A DNA stretch of 23,430 nucleotides, from the IMG/VR virus record IMGVR_UViG_2675903330_000005, positions 1-23,430 of that record. One strand, 5' to 3'. Shown in pieces: positions 1 to 7,175 of this stretch (its first letter is position 1; each line of letters starts with the position of its first letter). Origin of the DNA: a virus. Its lineage: Duplodnaviria; Heunggongvirae; Uroviricota; Caudoviricetes. Both the position numbers and the translations under genes were made by a program. The notes under the pieces are model-generated. The model did no database searches. It was not told the DNA's origin and worked only from the letters and a program-made list of their open reading frames with translations.

Positions 1-1017
1 TCACACTTCTAGCGTTGCGAGGGGGTTGAATCTCAGAGCCGTCTCAAGATGATCGGGTGCTAAATGGGCATAGCGCATAGTCATTTTTATATCGTGATGT
101 CCGAGGATTTTTTGCAAAGCAAGGATATTTCCACCCGACATCATGAAGTGCGCCGCAAACGTATGGCGCAGAACGTGTGTCAGTTGACCGCGAGGGAGCA
201 CGATAGACGTTTTTTCCATCACGGATAAAAATTGAAAATAGCAGTCTGTAAAGAAATTGAACCCATCAAGCGCCATGATCTCTTCGTAAAGCTCTTTACT
301 GATAGGGATGCTTCTGTTTTTCTTCCCCTTCGTTCTTACAAAGGTAATTCGGTATTTGGTCACTTGCGAGCGGGTAAGATTTATTGCTTCTCGCCAGCGT
401 GCGCCTGTGCTTAGGCATATCTTGACTACCAGTGCCAGAATTGGGTCCTGACGTTTGCAATCAGCCAGCAGTTCAACAATCTGCTCATGGGTAAGCCATG
501 CCATCTCTTTTTCTGCGATGGTGAATTTTCGCATGTTCTCCAGTGGGTTCGGATACGACCATTCGCCCAGGCGGGATAGTTCGCTAAAAACACTACTTAG
601 ATAGCTTTGCTCCAGGTTAATGGTGACCGGGCTTGCTCCTTTCTTCCATTTCTCGCTGAAGTAGATCTCACCTGTCAGGCGTTTATCTCGATAGTGGGCA
701 AACATTTTAGAGGTTAGATCAGTTGCAAGGGGATTGCCCAGAGCGTCAACCATCAACAGCAGTTTGTCATAGACATGCTGCCCAGCTGTCAGAGATTTAC
801 CATGTAGTTTGAACCATAGCTCAATCACGTCTTTCAATGTCCGACGATCCACTGATTCGCCCAGCCAGGGCTTTGCTTCGGTTTCTTCCATCGTGTGACG
901 CTCAAAAGCCAGAGCTTCGCCTTTGGTGGCGAATTGTTTACGCACACGACGTCCACTACGTCCGGCGGGGTAACATTCGCAAAGCCATTTTCCTGTGGTG
1001 AGTTTTCGTACTGCCAT
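1..1017 (-). CDS. int: Phage integrase, tyrosine recombinase (P2 Int-like); likely start at the internal ATG (Met27 of the track ORF), about 338 aa
   Basis: Translated ORF has the P2-integrase-like C-terminal catalytic region (..LSTGARWREA.., ..HVLRHTFAAHFMMSGGNILALQKILGH.., ..MTMRYAHL..); N-terminus MAVRKLTTGKW matches the P2 Int start pattern; stop codon at window position 1-3. Confidence 0.9.
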   Translation of the reverse strand: MAVRKLTTGKWLCECYPAGRSGRRVRKQFATKGEALAFERHTMEETEAKPWLGESVDRRTLKDVIELWFKLHGKSLTAGQHVYDKLLLMVDALGNPLATDLTSKMFAHYRDKRLTGEIYFSEKWKKGASPVTINLEQSYLSSVFSELSRLGEWSYPNPLENMRKFTIAEKEMAWLTHEQIVELLADCKRQDPILALVVKICLSTGARWREAINLTRSQVTKYRITFVRTKGKKNRSIPISKELYEEIMALDGFNFFTDCYFQFLSVMEKTSIVLPRGQLTHVLRHTFAAHFMMSGGNILALQKILGHHDIKMTMRYAHLAPDHLETALRFNPLATLEV

Positions 1018-1203
1018 AAAAAATGCCCTCCAGTAGAGAGCATTTTTACTGTATGTATAACCAGTGTCAATGTATGAAATCCTGCGACCATACATCTCAC
1101 TGAAGCCATAATGAAGTTAGCTATTTTTTGCTATGTGAGTATGTGACTTTTGCGGTTAGCCTGCGGCTCATTGTTATATTAGGCGCAGATATAAAAGCAA
1201 AAT

Positions 1204-1395
1204 TTATCGCGAGTTTTTAGTACAGATTTTTTTTGATTTACTAATAGTTCCATCATTGCAAACGAACTTTCCATCGGAGGTACAGTGAGAGACACCTCCC
1301 TTTTTCCCAGAACAAGGATAATTTTTAGCATAGGTAGTTAGTGGGTTTAATAACAAAGAGCATGATAAAACCACAAAAAATACCTTACCAAGCAT
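1204..1395 (-). CDS. Small secreted cysteine-rich peptide (63 aa, predicted signal peptide, 4 Cys in mature part); function unknown, moron-like
   Basis: Hydrophobic N-terminus [23 protein letters not shown] followed by a Lys/Cys-rich approx 40-aa region; strong SD GGGAGGA 5 nt upstream of ATG; sits 16 bp downstream of cI on the same strand. Confidence 0.45.
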
Positions 1396-1410
1396 AGTTT
1401 CCTCCCGGTA

Positions 1411-1986
1411 TTACCTAACGTACTTAATTGTTAAACTTATAATTTTCCCAATTATTTCAACATCTTCTATCTTGCACTCGAAGGCTCTGTTTCCACCCTC
1501 GACGAAGATTCTTCCACCGGGTAAACGAGTAATGTCACGGATCGTTATTTCGCCATCAATACTTATTACCCATTTACCATCACGTATATCATCAAATTCC
1601 TTATCACAAATAAATTCAGAATTATTATCTGTGATTACAAAAAGATTCTTGAATGCCGACGGTAGAAATTCTCTATCGAAAATATAAAAACCGTCTTCAC
1701 ACAAGGCCCCATCAGATAATACATATTTAGCAACTTCCATAGTATTTGTATTACCTGAAGTTTGCTTTGAACCATGCCCGGTTGTGAGCCAATTAAGCGA
1801 GGTGCCTGTTTCAAGGGCGCACTGGATTACCCATTCTGCTGGGAATGAGTCACGCATGTAGCGTGTGGCGAGTGTACTTTTAGAGATTCCTAAATGATCG
1901 CACAACGCCTGTCGAGTCTTGAATCCATAAGCTTCTACCATGCGCTCTATAGCGCCTCGTCCGCCTTTCTCCAAATTCATGGTCAC
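1411..1986 (-). CDS. cI: Immunity repressor, phage 186 CI-type
   Basis: N-terminal region ..IERMVEAYGF..HLGISKSTLATRYMR..CALETGTSLNWLTTGHG matches the 186 CI HTH-domain pattern as I recall it; about 190 aa; located between int and divergently transcribed apl/cII. Confidence 0.85.
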   Translation of the reverse strand: MTMNLEKGGRGAIERMVEAYGFKTRQALCDHLGISKSTLATRYMRDSFPAEWVIQCALETGTSLNWLTTGHGSKQTSGNTNTMEVAKYVLSDGALCEDGFYIFDREFLPSAFKNLFVITDNNSEFICDKEFDDIRDGKWVISIDGEITIRDITRLPGGRIFVEGGNRAFECKIEDVEIIGKIISLTIKYVR

Positions 1987-2359: not shown

Positions 2360-2869
2360 ATGTTTGATTACCAAGTTTCCAAACATCCACATTTTGATGA
2401 AGCCTGTCGTGCATTCGCATTGCGCCACAACCTGGTGCAACTGGCAGAACGTGCTGGCATGAATGTGCAGATTCTGCGGAACAAGTTGAACCCAGCGCAA
2501 CCTCATTTATTAACCGCACCAGAAATCTGGCTGCTTACCGATCTGACTGAAGATTCAACGCTGGTAGATGGTTTTCTGGCTCAGATTCACTGCCTGCCAT
2601 GCGTACCGATTAATGAGGTGGCAAAAGAGAAACTGCCACATTACGTCATGAGTGCAACCGCAGAGATCGGGCGTGTTGCTGCAGGTGCGGTATCTGGCGA
2701 TGTAAAAACCAGTGCAGGTCGTCGTGATGCTATCAGCAGCATTAACTCTGTAACACGACTGATGGCGTTGGCTGCTGTTTCATTGCAGGCCCGTTTACAG
2801 GCTAACCCTGCGATGGCGAGTGCAGTTGATACCGTGACTGGCCTCGGTGCTTCATTCGGTTTGCTGTGA
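2360..2869 (+). CDS. cII: CII-type lysogeny establishment activator (phage 186 CII-like)
   Basis: Sequence [72 protein letters not shown] closely matches the 186 CII protein as I recall it; ATG at 2360 preceded by an AGAGG SD. Confidence 0.85.
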
Positions 2870-2876
2870 GGTGCTT

Positions 2877-3077
2877 ATGCTGACGAAAGAACCATCATTT
2901 GCATCGCTGCTGGTAAAGCAAAGCCCGGCAATGCACTACGGTCACGGCTGGATCATGGGTGAGGATGGAAAACGCTGGCATCCGTGCCGTTCACAAGATG
3001 AATTGCTGGCAGAACTATCTACGAAAAAACGGGGGAACAAATGGCTATTGAAGGCGCTGCGGCGACTGTTCCATTAA
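2877..3077 (+). CDS. Small early protein (positional equivalent of 186 fil); function not assignable
   Basis: ATG at 2877 with GAGGTG SD immediately after the cII stop; 66 aa. Confidence 0.4.
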   Translation: MLTKEPSFASLLVKQSPAMHYGHGWIMGEDGKRWHPCRSQDELLAELSTKKRGNKWLLKALRRLFH

Positions 3078-3382
3078 GACCCGGTGAACGCCTGAATGGA
3101 CTTAATCATATTGCGGAGTTAAGGGCGAAAGTTTTTGGTTTGAATATTGAGTCAGAGCTTGAGCGGTTTATTAAAGATATGCGTGATCCACGGGATATCA
3201 ATAATGAACAAAATAAACGGGCACTGGCTGCCATATTCTTTATGGCAAAAATTCCAGCTGAACGTCATAGCATCAGCATTAATGAGCTGACCACTGACGA
3301 AAAGCGGGAGTTGATTAAAGCAATGAATCATTTTCGTGCAGTGGTGAGCTTATTTCCCAGACGGCTAACCATGCCGAACTAA
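3041..3382 (+). CDS. Hypothetical early-region protein, 113 aa
   Basis: ORF with a GGGGGA SD-like sequence upstream; overlaps the 3' end of the preceding ORF; no recognisable motif. Confidence 0.4.
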   Translation: MAIEGAAATVPLRPGERLNGLNHIAELRAKVFGLNIESELERFIKDMRDPRDINNEQNKRALAAIFFMAKIPAERHSISINELTTDEKRELIKAMNHFRAVVSLFPRRLTMPN

Positions 3383-3449
3383 CCAACTAATGAAATTAAT
3401 GGCGTAAACCCGCCGGGCATCCCTTTATCTAAATTCAGGAGAATTGCTT

Positions 3450-3683
3450 ATGCGTAATATTGAAACCCTCACGACCAAAACCGGACCGGATGATGCAGGT
3501 CTTAATCTTTTACTGACAGAGGCTCGTCTGGAAGAACGCCGGGCAAGGGCTGAAGCAATGGCTGCTCGCCTCGATAGCCTGGCGTGTCATATCACCTCCC
3601 GCCAGCTAAACCACGTCGAAGCGGCAGAACTGCTGCGTGTGACTGCTGAAGCAATCCAGAACGAAGCGCAGGAGATCCACTGA
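3450..3683 (+). CDS. Hypothetical early-region protein, 77 aa, predicted coiled-coil/helical
   Basis: ATG at 3450 with AGGAGA SD 7 nt upstream; its stop overlaps the next gene's start (TGATG). Confidence 0.45.
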   Translation: MRNIETLTTKTGPDDAGLNLLLTEARLEERRARAEAMAARLDSLACHITSRQLNHVEAAELLRVTAEAIQNEAQEIH

Positions 3684-3910
3684 TGGCTGATGCAATGGAT
3701 CTCGTACAGCAGCGCGTTGAAGAAGAACGCCAACGCCATATCCGTGCTGCCCGTGCCAAAACGCCGGGCGTGTCCCGCGTGCTTTGCGTTGAGTGTGAAG
3801 CGCCAATTCCGCCAGCACGCCGCCGTGCCATTCCTGGAGTGCAGCTTTGCATTACCTGCCAGGAAATCGCAGAGCTGAAAGGCAAACATTACAACGGAGG
3901 TGCTGTATGA
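3683..3910 (+). CDS. TraR/DksA-family C4 zinc-finger protein (P2 orf82-like)
   Basis: CxxC...CxxC arrangement (..LCVECEAPIP..LCITCQE..) in a 75-aa protein; typical position in the P2-like early operon. Confidence 0.7.
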   Translation: MADAMDLVQQRVEEERQRHIRAARAKTPGVSRVLCVECEAPIPPARRRAIPGVQLCITCQEIAELKGKHYNGGAV

Positions 3911-4764
3911 GCACCATCCTGAAATGGGCGGGTAATAAAACCGCCATTATGTCCGAACTGAAAAAATACCTTCCTGCTGGCCCGCGACTGGTTGAACCTT
4001 TCGCGGGTTCTTGTGCTGTGATGATGGCGACGGATTACCCCAGCTATCTGGTTGCGGATATTAATCCTGATTTAATCAACCTCTATAAAAAGATTGCCGC
4101 TGATTGCGAAGCGTTTATATCTCGTGCCAAAGTTTTATTTGAGGAAGCAAACAGTGAGCTGGCTTATTACAACATAAGACAGGAGTTTAATTACTCAACT
4201 GAAATTACTGATTTCATGAAGGCGATATATTTCCTGTATCTCAATCGTCACGGTTACCGTGGTTTATGTCGCTATAACAAGAGCGGGTATTTCAACATTC
4301 CCTACGGTAATTATAAAAATCCGTATTTCCCTGAAAAAGAAATTCGCGCATTTGCAGAGAAAGCCCAGCGGGCAACGTTTATCTGCGCGAGCTTTGATGA
4401 AACGCTGGCGATGCTGCAGGTGGGGGATGTGGTGTATTGCGATCCGCCGTATGACGGTACGTTTTCCGGCTATCACACTGATGGTTTCACTGAAGATGAC
4501 CAGTATCACCTGGCATCCATTCTTGAACATCGGTCATCAGAAGGACATCCGGTCATTGTTTCTAACAATGACACATCCCTGATTCGTTCGCTGTATCGCA
4601 ATTTTACTCACCACTATATCAAGGCAAAACGCAGCATCGGCGTGTCAGCTGGCGAGGGTAAATCTGCAACAGAAATCATTGCTGTTTCCGGGCCGAGCTG
4701 CTGGTTGGGATTTGATCCTTCGCGTGGCGTGGATAGTTCTGCCGTGTACGGAGTGTGTGTATGA
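3907..4764 (+). CDS. dam: DNA adenine methyltransferase (Dam-like, GATC N6-adenine MTase)
   Basis: N-terminal LKWAGNK and FAGSCAV (AdoMet-binding) motifs plus catalytic DPPY motif (..[11 protein letters not shown]..); start ATGA-overlaps the upstream stop. Confidence 0.9.
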
Positions 4765-7175
4765 GTCATGACGATATGAACAATTGCAGCGGCTTTAACG
4801 AGGCCGCCGCAGCATTTTCATGGAACGGCTCGAAAAAGGCCATTAACCCTTATCTGGACCCGGCGGAAGTTGCGCCGGAGTCTGCACTTTCAAACCTGAT
4901 CACTCTGTACGCTGCCGATAACGAGCAGGAACAACTGCGCCGCGAGGCACTGAGTGAGCAGGTCTGGGAGCGTTATTTCTTTAATGAATCCCGTGATCCT
5001 GTCCAGCGCGAAATGGAGCAGGATAAGCTCATTAGCCGGGCAAAGCTGGCGCATGAGCAGCAGCGTTTTAATCCGGACATGGTCATTCTGGCGGACGTAA
5101 ACGCCCAGCCTTCCCATATCAGCAAGCCGCTGATGCAACGTATTGAATACTTCAGCAGCCTGGGCAGGCCAAAGGCTTATTCCCGCTATTTGCGTGAGAC
5201 GATTAAGCCATGTCTGGAGCGACTGGATTGTGTACGTGACAGTCAGCTATCTGTTTCTTTCCGTTTTATGGCAAGCCATCAAGGGCTGGAGGGTCTGCTG
5301 ATCCTGCCTGAAATGAGCCAGGATCAGGTGAAACGCCTGTCCACCCTGGTAGCAGCGCATATGAGCATGTGTCTTGAGGACGCTTGTGGTGATTTGTATG
5401 CCACCGATGACGTTAAGCCAGAAGAAATCCGCAAGACATGGGAAAAGGTGGCAGCGGAAACCCTGCGTCTGGATGTTATCCCGCCTGCGTTTGAGAAACT
5501 TCGTCGGAAAAGAAACCGCCGCAAACCAGTGCCCTATGAACTCATCCCGGGTTCGCTGGCGCGTATGTTGTGTGCCGACTGGTGGTATCGGAAATTATGG
5601 AAGATGCGTTGCGAATGGCGGGAAGAGCAGTTGCGTGCTGTCTGCCTGGTCAGCAAAAAAGCATCCCCCTATGTCAGCTATGAAGCCGTGATGCATAAAC
5701 GTGAGCAGCGCCGTAAGTCGCTGGAGTTTTTTCGTTCTCATGAACTGGTGAACGAAGACGGCGACACGCTGGATATGGAAGATGTGGTAAACGCCAGCAG
5801 CAGCAACCCGGCGCATCGCCGCAATGAGATGATGGCCTGTGTTAAAGGTCTGGAGCTTATCGCGGAAATGCGCAGTGACTGTGCCGTTTTCTACACTATC
5901 ACCTGTCCGTCGCGTTTCCATTCCACGCTCAATAACGGCAGACCAAACCCGACCTGGACAAACGCGACGGTAAGACAAAGTAGCGATTATCTGGTCGGCA
6001 TGTTTGCTGCATTTCGTAAGGCTATGCATAAAGCCGAGTTGCGCTGGTATGGCGTGCGGGTAGCTGAGCCGCATCATGACGGTACTGTGCACTGGCATCT
6101 CATGTGTTTCATGCGTAAAAAAGACCGCCGCGCCATCACTGCATTACTGCGTAAGTTTGCCATCCGTGAAGACCGCGAGGAGCTGGGCAATAACACGGGA
6201 CCACGCTTTAAGTCTGAGCTGATAAACCCGCGCAAAGGTACGCCAACAAGCTATATCGCGAAATACATCAGTAAGAACATTGACGGGCGTGGTCTGGCTG
6301 GGGAGATCAGCAAGGAAACGGGTAAATCCCTGCGTGATAACGCTGAATACGTTAATGCCTGGGCGTCTCTGCATCGTGTTCAGCAATTCCGCTTCTTTGG
6401 CATTCCGGGGCGTCAGGCTTACCGTGAACTGCGATTGCTGGCTGGTCAGGCGGCAAGGCAACAGGGTGACAAAAAAGCAGGTGCGCCGGTACTGGATAAC
6501 CCGCGCCTTGATGCAATCCTGGCTGCTGCTGATGCTGGTTGTTTTGCCACCTACATCATGAAGCAGGGCGGCGTACTGGTTCCCCGCAAATATCACCTCA
6601 TCAGAACTGCTTATGAAATCAACGAAGAACCGACCGCATATGGCGATCACGGTATTCGTATTTATGGCATCTGGTCACCCATTGCAGAGGGCAAGATCTG
6701 CACTCATGCGGTGAAGTGGAAAATGGTTCGTAAGGCCGTTGACGTTCAGGAGGCGGCAGCCGACCAGGGCGCTTGCGCCCCTTGGACTCGTGGCAATAAC
6801 TGTCCCCTTGCTGAAAATTTGAACCAACAGGAGAAAGATAAATCAACAGATGGGGATCCCAGAACTGACATTACCTGTATGGATGACAAGGAGTTGCACG
6901 ATTACCTGCACAGTATGAGCAAAAAAGAGCGCCAGGAACTGGCAGCAAGATTACGCCTGATGAAACCGAAACGGCGTAAAGACTACAAACAGCGAATTAC
7001 AGAGTATCAGCGTCAGCAGCTCGTCTATGAACTGAAGTCAAGAGGATTTGATGGCAGCGAGAAAGAGGTCGATTTGCTCCTTCGCGGTGGCAGTATTCCG
7101 TCAGGAGCAGGCCTGCGTATCTTCTATCGGAACCAGCGTTTGCAGGAAGATGATAAGTGGCGGAACCTGTATTAA
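4761..7175 (+). CDS. A: Replication initiation endonuclease gpA (HUH rolling-circle initiator)
   Basis: About 804 aa; HUH motif ..[10 protein letters not shown].. and tyrosine pair ..[10 protein letters not shown].. characteristic of P2 gpA; start overlaps dam stop (ATGA). Confidence 0.9.

What the first reader, a model, noticed from the sequence alone, without database searches (positions are those of the whole stretch)
1204..1395. Small secreted cysteine-rich peptide between cI and int
A 63-aa ORF with a signal-peptide-like N-terminus and a roughly 40-aa Lys/Cys-rich mature region has a strong SD and lies on the cI-int transcript, so it would be expressed from the lysogen. This is typical of lysogenic-conversion morons. 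Four cysteines suggest a disulfide-stabilised periplasmic or exported peptide.
Basis: seen in the sequence. Interest (0 to 1): 0.45.

Follow-up and report, generated by a model that had tools for sequence, protein, structure and literature searches.

The report
Prophage YdcA-family small periplasmic protein

Summary
The 63-codon ORF at 1204-1395 (minus strand) is real. It starts 15 nt after the cI stop, behind a GGGAGG Shine-Dalgarno. It encodes a 23-residue signal peptide and a 40-residue mature peptide with four Cys and pI 9.6. It passes the NCBIfam YdcA model (116 bits against a cut-off of 93) and matches PHROG 6000 and Pfam PF27300. RefSeq already labels identical copies 'YdcA family protein'.

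Divergent alleles show saturated synonymous change (pS about 0.8) but pN of 0.03-0.05 in the mature part. The signal peptide is almost free to vary.

Phage 186 has no gene here. Sister E. coli and Klebsiella prophages have cI-YdcA-KAP NTPase-int, and Haemophilus phage HP2 has an unannotated copy overlapping its cI stop.

Two points were absent from the papers I read. First, the domain resembles each lobe of Legionella Dis2, a protein of the type IV secretion cap that faces the outer membrane (hhalign 93.8%). Second, the same domain heads secreted nucleases of three unrelated families, two of the four examined in context lying in P2-like phages.

Function is untested. My best guess is a binding module under the outer membrane that acts on incoming DNA or its entry route. 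Novelty is low for the gene and moderate for these links.

The parts
1204..1395 (-). YdcA-family gene: 63 codons plus TAA stop
   Evidence: ORF list. NCBIfam NF007463 scores 116.1 bits against a cut-off of 93. phrog_6000 E = 4.6e-34. The cluster representative at 97% identity carries PF27300 'YdcA'. Identical copies are annotated 'YdcA family protein' in RefSeq.
1327..1395 (-). Signal peptide coding part (residues 1-23, predicted signal peptidase I cleavage after T-Y-A)
   Evidence: Hydrophobic core with mean KD 2.86, Thr at -3 and Ala at -1. The -1 Ala is invariant and the rest is variable in 28 homologues. pN is about 0.5 between alleles. 139 of 142 family representatives have a hydrophobic stretch before the domain. 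SignalP was not available.
1207..1326 (-). Mature 40-residue four-Cys basic domain (YdcA domain, resembling a Dis2 lobe)
   Evidence: Invariant P, C, S, K, GG, C, F, C, DG, S, S, K, C columns. pN 0.03-0.05 against pS 0.78-0.85. AlphaFold2 pLDDT is about 90 over this part. hhalign against Dis2 lobes gives 93.8%.
1401..1406 (-). Shine-Dalgarno GGGAGG, 5 nt before the ATG
   Evidence: Read from the sequence.
1411..1986 (-). 186-type cI repressor gene, immediately upstream on the same strand
   Evidence: Pfam Phage_CI_repr 2.8e-33 and Phage_CI_C 8.7e-27. cI plus ydcA align as one block of about 71% identity with sister prophages.
1107..1211 (-). 105-nt spacer (its last 8 nt, 1204-1211, are the 3' end of the ORF) occupying the place where sister prophages carry a 443-aa KAP NTPase (PADLOC candidate PDC-S20)
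   Evidence: blastn break points. KAP NTPase context. PADLOC E = 1.3e-171. This spacer type occurs in 257 of 5426 E. coli genomes.
1018..1047 (-). 13-bp hairpin (5' arm 1047-1035, loop 1034-1032, 3' arm 1031-1019) running into a U-run (1023-1018) that abuts the int ATG. It sequesters the int Shine-Dalgarno GGAGGG (1031-1026). Candidate terminator or translational gate.
   Evidence: RNA fold of 1010-1215, z = -3.76. Hairpins of different sequence sit at the same place in L088 and L097, with compensatory changes. The simple terminator scan did not report it.
1..1017 (-). P2/186-type tyrosine integrase gene (start taken as ATG 1017, MAVRKL...)
   Evidence: Pfam Int_N 2.6e-32 and Phage_integrase 8e-22. 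RefSeq annotation of the identical locus.

Best explanation
Shown. The ORF is a genuine gene of the YdcA family (Pfam PF27300, NCBIfam PRK10040.1-2, PHROG 6000). It lies in the lysogeny module of a 186-like E. coli prophage.

Inferred from sequence rules. The pre-protein is exported by Sec. Signal peptidase I cuts it after T-Y-A23. The 40-residue, +7 mature peptide is oxidised in the periplasm to a two-disulfide mini-domain.

Inferred from gene order. It is translated from the lysogenic (cI) transcript as second cistron, so every lysogen makes it. A hairpin plus U-run just before int probably ends or gates that transcript.

Inferred from relatives. The mini-domain is the same module as one lobe of Legionella Dis2. 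Dis2 sits on the outer-membrane-facing surface of the Dot/Icm cap and contacts DotC, DotD and DotK. In other genomes, two of them P2-like phages, the domain is the N-terminal module of secreted nucleases of three unrelated families.

Proposed mechanism. The domain is a compact periplasmic binding module that works just under the outer membrane. In the lysogen the free domain binds incoming nucleic acid or the entry site it uses. That would give the prophage a mild exclusion function against superinfecting phage or other foreign DNA.

Rough likelihoods. Gene, family and export: about 0.9. Co-expression with cI: about 0.75. The DNA or entry-site mechanism: about 0.3.
For: Family: NF007463 at 116.1 bits against a cut-off of 93; phrog_6000; PF27300 'YdcA' on near-identical and diverged homologues.

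Export: variable hydrophobic N-terminus with an invariant -1 Ala. 139 of 142 representatives have a leader and 152 of 154 domains have exactly 4 Cys.

Selection: mature pN 0.03-0.05 against pS 0.78-0.85; signal peptide pN about 0.5.

Operon position: 15-nt gap and a strong SD. The same first-after-cI position occurs in E. coli and Klebsiella sister prophages. In Haemophilus HP2 the ATG overlaps the cI stop. The scan found no terminator-like site on the coding strand between cI and the ORF.

Dis2 link: phmmer E = 3.1e-5. Foldseek top hit 7muc_AN, probability 0.99, 39% identity over 38 columns, with nothing else above noise. BLASTP to both lobes, 5e-6 and 9e-6. hhalign 93.8%, E = 1.7e-7. Dis2 location and contacts are from PMC8486379 and PMC12716638.

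Nuclease fusions: YdcA+SNase (P0137, P0212/P0229, P0337), YdcA+Endonuclease_NS (P0224), YdcA+PLDc_2 (P0211). Two of these lie in P2-like phage contigs.

Charge: family domains are mostly basic, median net charge +3; this one is +7.

Precedent: periplasmic DNases carried by mobile elements block DNA uptake (PMC12378983).
Against: No experiment bears on this protein's function.

The nuclease fusions are few: four 50%-identity representatives among the best 150 of 334, with 1-3 members per 90% cluster, plus P0337 found separately. All come from metagenomes. They fit an anchoring or metal-binding role as well as DNA binding.

Net charge in the family ranges from -1 to +8.

PADLOC has no model matching it.

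The only phenotype reported for a family member is sensitivity of an E. coli W ydcA deletion to 300 mM 3-hydroxypropionate. That paper also cites up-regulation at pH 5 (PMC7642389). This points to envelope or acid stress, not DNA.

Most chromosomal copies sit among housekeeping genes.
Confidence: 0.45

Rival explanations
1. Envelope or acid-stress fitness factor. The prophage copy does what the chromosomal ydcA is hinted to do: it protects the envelope under organic-acid or low-pH stress. It benefits the lysogen directly and has nothing to do with foreign DNA.
For: An E. coli W ydcA deletion is severely impaired at 300 mM 3-hydroxypropionate. The same paper cites earlier work that ydcA is induced at pH 5 under YdcI (PMC7642389). 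Many family members are chromosomal single genes among housekeeping loci. A Legionella dis2 deletion has a growth defect on medium with 100 mM NaCl (PMC12716638).
Against: It does not explain the repeated fusion to nucleases. It also does not explain the recurrent placement in phage lysogeny or tail modules. The 3-HP phenotype disappeared completely in a yieP deletion background, and no mechanism was given. The window protein belongs to a different sub-model (PRK10040.1-2) from the 57-residue PRK10040.1-1 model, against which it scores 68 bits for a cut-off of 118. I take that model, from memory, to be the K-12 YdcA type.
Confidence: 0.25
2. Protein-binding 'staple' under the outer membrane that blocks a host envelope machine. 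Like a Dis2 lobe, it clamps onto outer-membrane lipoproteins or the periplasmic face of an outer-membrane protein. That would mask a receptor or conduit used by competing phages, an exclusion of the Cor/Llp type but by a soluble protein.
For: The homologous Dis2 sits on the outer-membrane-facing surface and buries 350-837 A2 with each of DotC, DotD and DotK (PMC12716638). In nuclease fusions such a module would position the enzyme at the entry site. The gene is expressed with the repressor, as exclusion genes typically are (established knowledge of prophage exclusion genes).
Against: No partner is known or predicted. The very high conservation of the mature domain across gamma-, beta- and alpha-proteobacteria argues for a universal ligand rather than a variable protein partner. 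There is no lipid anchor: the Cys in the leader is neither conserved nor in a lipobox.
Confidence: 0.15
3. Metal-binding (for example Ca2+) accessory module, functionally analogous to the Excalibur domain. As a free protein it would buffer or deliver a cation in the periplasm.
For: In the same SNase subfamily the N-terminal extension is either the YdcA domain (P0137, P0337) or Excalibur PF05901 (P0412, P0423). Staphylococcal-type nucleases need Ca2+ (established knowledge). The domain has invariant Asp, Ser and His positions.
Against: There is no Excalibur or EF-hand match. PLD-type nucleases need no metal (established knowledge), yet they are fused too. The four Cys are best explained as disulfides, as in Dis2 (PMC8486379). 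The domain is strongly basic, unlike acidic Ca2+ sites.
Confidence: 0.07
4. Protease inhibitor or cationic antimicrobial peptide, suggested by the cysteine pattern and charge.
For: Weak phmmer matches to potato type II (Pin-II) proteinase inhibitors, E = 0.24-2.2. The peptide is cationic, 4.3 kDa and Cys-rich.
Against: The E-values are not significant and rest on Cys/Gly spacing alone. Pfam shows no such family. A Sec leader alone delivers only to the periplasm in a Gram-negative cell (established knowledge).
Confidence: 0.03
5. Chance ORF or decaying remnant with no function.
For: The ORF is short, AT-rich (34.9% GC) and unannotated in several phage records.
Against: The curated HMM cut-off is passed. 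There are 880 clusters at 90% identity and 334 representatives at 50%. Purifying selection is extreme. The gene is intact even in the defective E. coli B prophage, where cII and the replication gene are pseudogenes.
Confidence: 0.01

Closest known systems
YdcA family (E. coli K-12 YdcA/b1419; Pfam PF27300; NCBIfam PRK10040 models; PHROG 6000)
   Same: Signal peptide followed directly by a domain of about 36 residues with four Cys and the motif PCSG.KGG[VI].HC...F[VI]C.DG..S.SK..C. The protein passes the curated NCBIfam cut-off for sub-model PRK10040.1-2.
   Different: It belongs to a different sub-model from the 57-residue PRK10040.1-1 model, which I take from memory to be the K-12 chromosomal type (68 bits against a cut-off of 118). 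It is encoded as second cistron of a prophage cI operon rather than as a chromosomal singleton. The family itself has no established function.
[quoted passage not shown]
   Same: Each Dis2 lobe shares the core C-x(2-3)-K/Q-x-GG-[IV]...G-x-[FL]-VCN-[DN]-G-x-x-S with disulfide-forming Cys. Measures: BLASTP 5e-6 and 9e-6, hhalign 93.8%, and it is the only Foldseek hit above noise. Both proteins are Sec-exported and periplasmic.
   Different: Dis2 has two lobes pinned by five disulfides and is part of a T4SS cap. It contacts DotC, DotD and DotK (PMC8486379, PMC12716638). The window protein is a single free domain with four Cys in a prophage with no T4SS. By my count, Dis2 lobes are not basic. The Dis2 papers I read call it Legionella-specific and do not mention YdcA.
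Secreted or periplasmic nucleases of mobile elements (for example Campylobacter CJIE1 Dns, Vibrio ICE IdeA/SxnA) that block DNA uptake
   Same: Prophage- or ICE-borne, exported and expressed in the carrier cell. The YdcA domain is found fused to SNase, Endonuclease_NS and PLD-type nuclease domains, two of these in P2-like phages (precedent in PMC12378983).
   Different: The window protein has no catalytic domain at all. Any action on DNA would have to be by binding, and that is untested.
Prophage superinfection-exclusion proteins acting in the envelope (T5 Llp, phi80/N15 Cor, T4 Sp/Imm, P22 SieA, HK97 gp15)
   Same: Small, exported, produced from a prophage or early transcript, and acting in the periplasm or membrane (recalled from the literature, not tested here).
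   Different: Those are lipoproteins or inner-membrane proteins. This one is predicted soluble, shows no sequence similarity to them, and has no PADLOC match.

Membership tests
YdcA family (PF27300 / NCBIfam NF007463 PRK10040.1-2 / PHROG 6000) | Score above the curated family cut-off | tested here: met
   NF007463 scores 116.1 bits against a cut-off of 93 over residues 5-63. phrog_6000 E = 4.6e-34. The local Pfam copy lacks PF27300, but precomputed PF27300 is on the 97%-identical cluster representative P0001.
YdcA family (PF27300 / NCBIfam NF007463 PRK10040.1-2 / PHROG 6000) | N-terminal signal peptide directly followed by the domain | tested here: met
   Alignment of 28 members: variable hydrophobic leader and invariant Ala at -1. 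139 of 142 representatives have a hydrophobic leader, and the first domain starts at residues 20-39 in 117 of 148. No SignalP run was possible.
YdcA family (PF27300 / NCBIfam NF007463 PRK10040.1-2 / PHROG 6000) | Four conserved cysteines and the PCSG.KGG / C.DG..S.SK motifs | tested here: met
   Invariant columns are listed. 152 of 154 domains have exactly 4 Cys.
Dis2 (Lpg0823) of the Dot/Icm T4SS | Sequence or profile similarity to a Dis2 lobe | tested here: met
   phmmer E = 3.1e-5. BLASTP 5e-6 and 9e-6 to lobes 1 and 2. hhalign 93.8%, E = 1.7e-7 over 26 columns. The mature-only profile against PDB reaches only E = 0.12.
Dis2 (Lpg0823) of the Dot/Icm T4SS | Same three-dimensional fold | tested here: inconclusive
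   [not shown]
Dis2 (Lpg0823) of the Dot/Icm T4SS | Two tandem lobes with five disulfides | tested here: not met
   The window protein has one domain and four Cys. Dis2 homologues have two lobes (PMC8486379).
Dis2 (Lpg0823) of the Dot/Icm T4SS | Part of, or encoded with, a type IVB secretion system | tested here: not met
   The locus is a 186/P2-like prophage: cI, int, apl/cII-like genes, and replication genes in the sister loci. No T4SS genes were seen.
Prophage moron / lysogenic-conversion gene (functional class) | Present in some and absent from other closely related phages at the same site | tested here: met
   Phage 186 has cI and int abutting. HP1 has orf1-4 where HP2 has the ydcA-like gene plus orf1. 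Klebsiella 4LV2017 has a 349-aa ORF.
Prophage moron / lysogenic-conversion gene (functional class) | Deviant base composition, own promoter and terminator | tested here: inconclusive
   The ORF is 34.9% GC against 50.2% for the window, but the low-GC tract also covers the 3' half of cI. No own promoter is evident, because the gene is coupled to cI. A hairpin plus U-run lies about 157 nt downstream, not directly after the stop.
Prophage moron / lysogenic-conversion gene (functional class) | Expressed in the lysogen and changes host phenotype | not testable with these tools
   No expression data or phenotype for this gene was found.
Bacterial lipoproteins (Lgt/Lsp substrates) | Lipobox [LVI][ASTVI][GAS]C with a conserved Cys at +1 | tested here: not met
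   V-L-S-C12 is a poor lipobox after only 11 residues. The Cys is absent from, or in a non-lipobox context in, most homologues.
Known anti-phage defence proteins (PADLOC-DB 2.0) | Match to a defence-system model | tested here: not met
   No family at E <= 0.01 for the window protein. The neighbouring KAP NTPase of the sister prophages does match PDC-S20 at 1.3e-171.
Pin-II (potato type II) proteinase inhibitors | Significant sequence similarity | tested here: not met
   E = 0.24-2.2, with Cys/Gly spacing only.

The most novel reading that the evidence does not exclude
The YdcA/Dis2-lobe mini-domain is a previously unrecognised periplasmic module. It binds nucleic acid, or the site where nucleic acid crosses the outer membrane. 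Free copies placed right after cI in P2/186-like and Haemophilus prophages would then be a new, soluble, non-enzymatic type of exclusion factor against superinfecting phage DNA, transforming DNA or conjugative DNA. Fused copies would arm the same module with a nuclease. This would also give Legionella Dis2, now called species-specific and of unknown role, a family and a testable function.
Probability: 0.2. Interest if true: 0.65.

Novelty: already known. Interest (0 to 1): 0.33.

Why it matters
On its own this is a named, catalogued conserved hypothetical, so confirming it adds little. About 11% of complete E. coli genomes (592 of 5426), including the laboratory B, BL21 and C strains, hold at least 80% of the 1.1-kb stretch around it (end of cI, ORF, start of int).

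Three things make it a reasonable small target.

1. It sits in the one operon a prophage must express. It is under very strong constraint, and it has kept the same first-after-cI position from E. coli to Haemophilus.

2. It appears to be the free-standing form of the lobes of Dis2, a type IV secretion cap protein whose fold had no known relatives in the papers I read.

3. The same domain has been joined repeatedly to secreted nucleases, some inside P2-like phages. That gives the whole family a concrete, cheap-to-test hypothesis: DNA or entry-site binding in the periplasm.

Next to it, the slot before int carries a candidate defence gene (KAP NTPase, PDC-S20) in sister prophages. The cI-int interval of P2/186-like phages may therefore be a cargo hotspot worth mining.

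Tried and rejected
Searches that gave nothing useful
- Local Pfam gave only a sub-threshold GULLO2-like hit, because PF27300 is newer than the local copy.
- PADLOC: no match for the ORF, HP2 orf1 or the Klebsiella 349-aa cargo.
- Rfam on 800-2400: nothing.
- Literature: 28 papers mention 'ydcA'. Several of those concern unrelated genes of that name (for example Bacillus or Neisseria), and the one I read with functional data on the E. coli gene is the 3-HP paper. 'PF27300' appears in no paper.

Leads that did not hold up
- The UniRef name 'Conjugal transfer protein' for identical sequences has no support in gene context, which is always the prophage.
- Plasmid hits in Acinetobacter, Rhizobium and others had uninformative neighbours.
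- The lipoprotein reading was rejected: poor, unconserved lipobox.
- The Pin-II inhibitor and lpg1681-family hints were rejected as non-significant.
- The + strand terminator-like site at 1150-1166 depends on G-T pairs that become C-A mismatches on the coding strand, so it is not a terminator for this gene.

Searches that were less informative than hoped
- The viral-contig scan returned 479 relatives, but the 80 kept were all the same prophage type and added no new contexts.
- The second database search (880 clusters) listed only single-domain proteins among its best 120, so it did not extend the fusion census.
- The profile of the mature domain against PDB gave only E = 0.12 for Dis2. I therefore fetched full Dis2 homologues and tested lobe by lobe.
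Full report
**1. The observation**

The cI stop codon is at 1413-1411. After it comes TACCGGGAGGAAACT and then the ATG, so a GGGAGG Shine-Dalgarno lies 5 nt before the start and only 15 nt separate the two genes.

The product is [23 protein letters not shown]|[40 protein letters not shown]. The leader has a basic n-region and a 12-residue hydrophobic core (mean Kyte-Doolittle 2.86). It has Pro at -6, Thr at -3 and Ala at -1. This is the classical signal peptidase I pattern (the -3/-1 rule is established knowledge; SignalP was not available).

The mature part is 40 residues, 4265 Da and pI 9.64, with 8 Lys, 1 Arg, 2 Asp and 4 Cys.

An ORF of this length is not remarkable in itself. The window contains 61 ATG-ORFs of at least 63 codons. 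The evidence has to come from elsewhere.

**2. It is a real gene in a named family**

The protein passes the curated cut-off of NCBIfam NF007463 (PRK10040.1-2): 116.1 bits against 93. It matches PHROG 6000 at 4.6e-34. The local Pfam copy has no model for it. The precomputed annotation of its cluster representative (97% identical) and of diverged homologues is PF27300, named 'YdcA'.

The 1.1-kb stretch 1000-2100 (end of cI, the ORF, start of int) is 100% identical in several E. coli chromosomes and 99.9% identical in E. coli C and B/BL21-type strains. At 80% coverage or more it occurs in 592 of 5426 complete E. coli genomes. PGAP labels the gene either 'hypothetical protein' or 'YdcA family protein'.

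A profile search of 1.84 billion representatives found 334 clusters at 50% identity. A second search found 880 clusters at 90%.

Among the 148 representatives analysed, 139 of 142 have a hydrophobic leader before the domain. Of 154 domains, 152 have exactly four Cys. Median net charge is +3, with a range of -1 to +8.

In an alignment of 28 members the leader is unconserved except for an invariant Ala at -1. The mature domain is nearly invariant: [12 protein letters not shown]...[15 protein letters not shown].

**3. Selection**

I compared the window gene with the alleles of two sister prophages, L088 (E. coli) and L097 (Klebsiella).

| Region | pS | pN |
|---|---|---|
| Mature domain | 0.78-0.85 (saturated) | 0.03-0.05 |
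| Signal peptide | 0.72-0.83 (saturated) | about 0.5 |

Against Haemophilus phage HP2 the core still shows pN 0.13 with saturated pS. This is the signature of an old, translated gene with a strongly constrained mature part. The leader is constrained only in its physical character. This refutes the 'chance ORF' reading.

**4. Genomic setting**

The window is a 186/P2-like prophage (cI and integrase domains; annotations). The cI-int interval differs between related phages.

| Phage or prophage | What lies between cI and int |
|---|---|
| Phage 186 | Nothing; cI and int abut |
| Haemophilus HP1 | orf1-4 |
| Haemophilus HP2 (also matched at the same coordinates in the S2 record) | Unannotated 60-aa YdcA homologue whose ATG overlaps the cI stop, then a secreted 254-aa ORF |
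| Klebsiella phage 4LV2017 | A 349-aa ORF |
| E. coli and Klebsiella sister prophages | YdcA, then a 443-aa KAP NTPase |

The KAP NTPase matches the PADLOC candidate PDC-S20 at 1.3e-171.

blastn shows that cI plus ydcA form one contiguous block of about 71% identity with these sister prophages. int and 89 nt upstream of it form a second block of 91%. The KAP gene is replaced in the window by a 105-nt spacer at 1107-1211. That spacer occurs in 257 genomes.

So the gene is cargo relative to 186, but in this lineage it belongs to the immunity module. The hot slot lies between it and int.

The ORF is AT-rich (34.9% GC against 50.2% for the window). The low-GC tract also covers the 3' half of cI.

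In Moraxella and Acinetobacter siphoviruses the homologue sits among structural-module genes, upstream of tail genes. It also occurs on plasmids of Acinetobacter, Rhizobium and others. It is therefore a mobile single-gene unit.

**5. Transcript context**

The simple scan finds no terminator-like site on the coding strand between cI and the ORF or directly after the ORF.

Folding the coding-strand RNA of 1010-1215 gives a 13-bp hairpin, AAAAAUGCUCUCU-ACU-GGAGGGCAUUUUU. Its 3' arm contains the int Shine-Dalgarno. It runs into a U-run that abuts the int AUG (z = -3.76 for the whole segment).

Sister prophages have a hairpin of different sequence at the same spot: AGUCCUCA-GACA-UGAGGACU-UUUUU-AUG and AGCCCUCA-GACA-UGAGGGCU-UUUUU-AUG. 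These include a compensatory U-A to C-G change.

I read this as a terminator and/or translational gate in front of int. Expression itself was not measured.

**6. What the domain resembles**

Against all PDB sequences the only significant hit is chain AN of 7MUC (E = 3.1e-5). Part of that score comes from the leaders. With the mature-only profile it drops to E = 0.12.

I recovered full Dis2 homologues from two Legionella genomes. The lobes read CCSKMGGINYCDSSAGRLVCNNGFYS and CCLWQGGVSPDYTASGLVVCNDGSISEEC. The window protein reads [32 protein letters not shown].

BLASTP matches both lobes (5e-6 and 9e-6). Profile-profile comparison gives 93.8% probability and E = 1.7e-7 over 26 columns.

I conclude that the YdcA domain is probably the free-standing form of a Dis2 lobe. 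It is not a Dis2 orthologue: it has one lobe and four Cys, and there is no T4SS nearby.

**7. Domain fusions**

Most family members are the bare domain, sometimes in two or three tandem copies. I scanned 20 of the longer representatives against Pfam. Five had a second domain above its curated cut-off, and four of those are nucleases from three unrelated families.

| Protein | Second domain | Context |
|---|---|---|
| P0137 | SNase | Next to gpD, gpU and the tape measure of a P2-like contig |
| P0212/P0229 | SNase | Between the tape-measure gene and gpU/gpD of another P2-like phage |
| P0224 | Endonuclease_NS | Region resembling a mobile element |
| P0211 | PLD-type (PLDc_2) | 8-kb metagenomic contig next to ABC-transporter genes |

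The fifth is a VasL C-terminal fragment. A further SNase fusion (P0337) turned up separately. Sister SNases carry an Excalibur domain in the same N-terminal position.

These fusions are rare and come from metagenomes, so they are a lead and not proof. Even so, three unrelated nuclease folds sharing the same leader domain is unlikely to be accidental. The domain either binds the substrate or places the enzyme where the substrate arrives.

**8. Mechanism**

*Shown.* Family membership, leader and four-Cys architecture, strong constraint, and position after cI.

*Inferred from rules and analogy.* Sec export, cleavage after A23, two disulfides, and co-expression with cI in lysogens.

*Proposed (about 0.3).* A periplasmic binding module under the outer membrane that acts on incoming DNA or its entry route. 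It would give mild exclusion. The nuclease-armed versions would be the stronger form of the same strategy. Periplasmic DNases carried by prophages and ICEs that block DNA uptake are a documented precedent (PMC12378983).

*Main rival (about 0.25).* An envelope or acid-stress factor. This rests on the only phenotype in the literature I searched: an E. coli W ydcA deletion is sensitive to 300 mM 3-hydroxypropionate, and the paper cites induction at pH 5 (PMC7642389).

*Other rivals.* A Dis2-like protein 'staple' that masks an envelope machine (about 0.15). A metal-binding module analogous to Excalibur (about 0.07). Protease-inhibitor or antimicrobial-peptide readings rest on non-significant Cys-pattern matches.

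**9. Novelty and verdict**

The gene is already catalogued: RefSeq 'YdcA family protein', PF27300, PHROG 6000. I rate it 'already known' as an object.

Three points appear new relative to the papers I could read:
- the Dis2-lobe relationship;
- the recurrent nuclease fusions in P2-like phages;
- the conserved first-after-cI placement from Enterobacteriaceae to Haemophilus, next to a cargo slot that can hold a candidate defence gene.

Interest is modest (0.33). It would rise to about 0.65 if the domain proves to be a periplasmic module that binds DNA or its entry site and is used for exclusion.

Noticed in passing
window 1018-1047 (minus strand); L088 about 6577-6611; L097 about 6578-6611: A 13-bp hairpin plus U-run abuts the int ATG and sequesters the int Shine-Dalgarno. 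Sister prophages have a hairpin of different sequence at the same spot, with compensatory changes. It is a likely terminator or translational gate separating cI-ydcA from int. The simple terminator scan missed it.
   Followed up: partly
window 1042-1070 (minus strand): A promoter-like TTGACA-17-AAAAAT (10 of 12 matches) lies just upstream of, and overlaps, the hairpin. L088 has a similar TTGACC...TTAAAT at the same place by eye. It may be a separate int promoter.
   Followed up: no
window 1107-1211, compared with L088 5198-6529 and L097 5198-6529: Sister E. coli and Klebsiella 186-like prophages carry a 443-aa KAP-family NTPase between ydcA and int. It matches the PADLOC candidate PDC-S20 at E = 1.3e-171 and more weakly PifA and QatA. 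The window has only a 105-nt spacer there. The interval between ydcA and int looks like a cargo or defence slot.
   Followed up: partly
[not shown]
   Followed up: yes
L106 1459-1785 (Legionella quateirensis); L107 260-586 (L. bononiensis); PDB 7MUC chain AN: Dis2 of the Dot/Icm secretion system is described in the papers I read as Legionella-specific with no structural relatives. It appears to be a tandem duplication of the YdcA domain, which is widespread in proteobacteria and their phages.
   Followed up: yes
L109 6001-6630; L103 5001-5669; L108 6001-6663; L111 6001-6648: Secreted nucleases (SNase twice, Endonuclease_NS, PLD-type) carry an N-terminal YdcA domain. Two sit in P2-like phage contigs, one of them between the tape-measure gene and gpU/gpD in the tail operon. 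Closely related SNases carry an Excalibur domain in that position instead.
   Followed up: partly
L007 (E. coli BLR(DE3), NZ_CP020368) 2861-4101: In E. coli B-lineage strains the prophage is defective: cII and the replication endonuclease are annotated as truncated pseudogenes. cI, the ydcA-like gene and int remain intact.
   Followed up: no
window 1400-1800: The low-GC tract (34-39%) is not confined to the small ORF. It extends over the 3' half of cI, which encodes the C-terminal domain of the repressor. The 5' half of cI is about 45-50% GC.
   Followed up: no
proteins P0056, P0057, P0060, P0062: Forms of 101-105 residues (P0056 is from Herbaspirillum; the other three are unnamed metagenomic sequences) have a second Cys-rich C-terminal module (C.C.....C.GPRGG.YC....G...Y) after the YdcA domain. 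It is a possible second, more diverged lobe, as in Dis2.
   Followed up: no
cluster of the window protein: UniRef names some identical sequences 'Conjugal transfer protein'. Nothing in the gene's context supports that name.
   Followed up: partly
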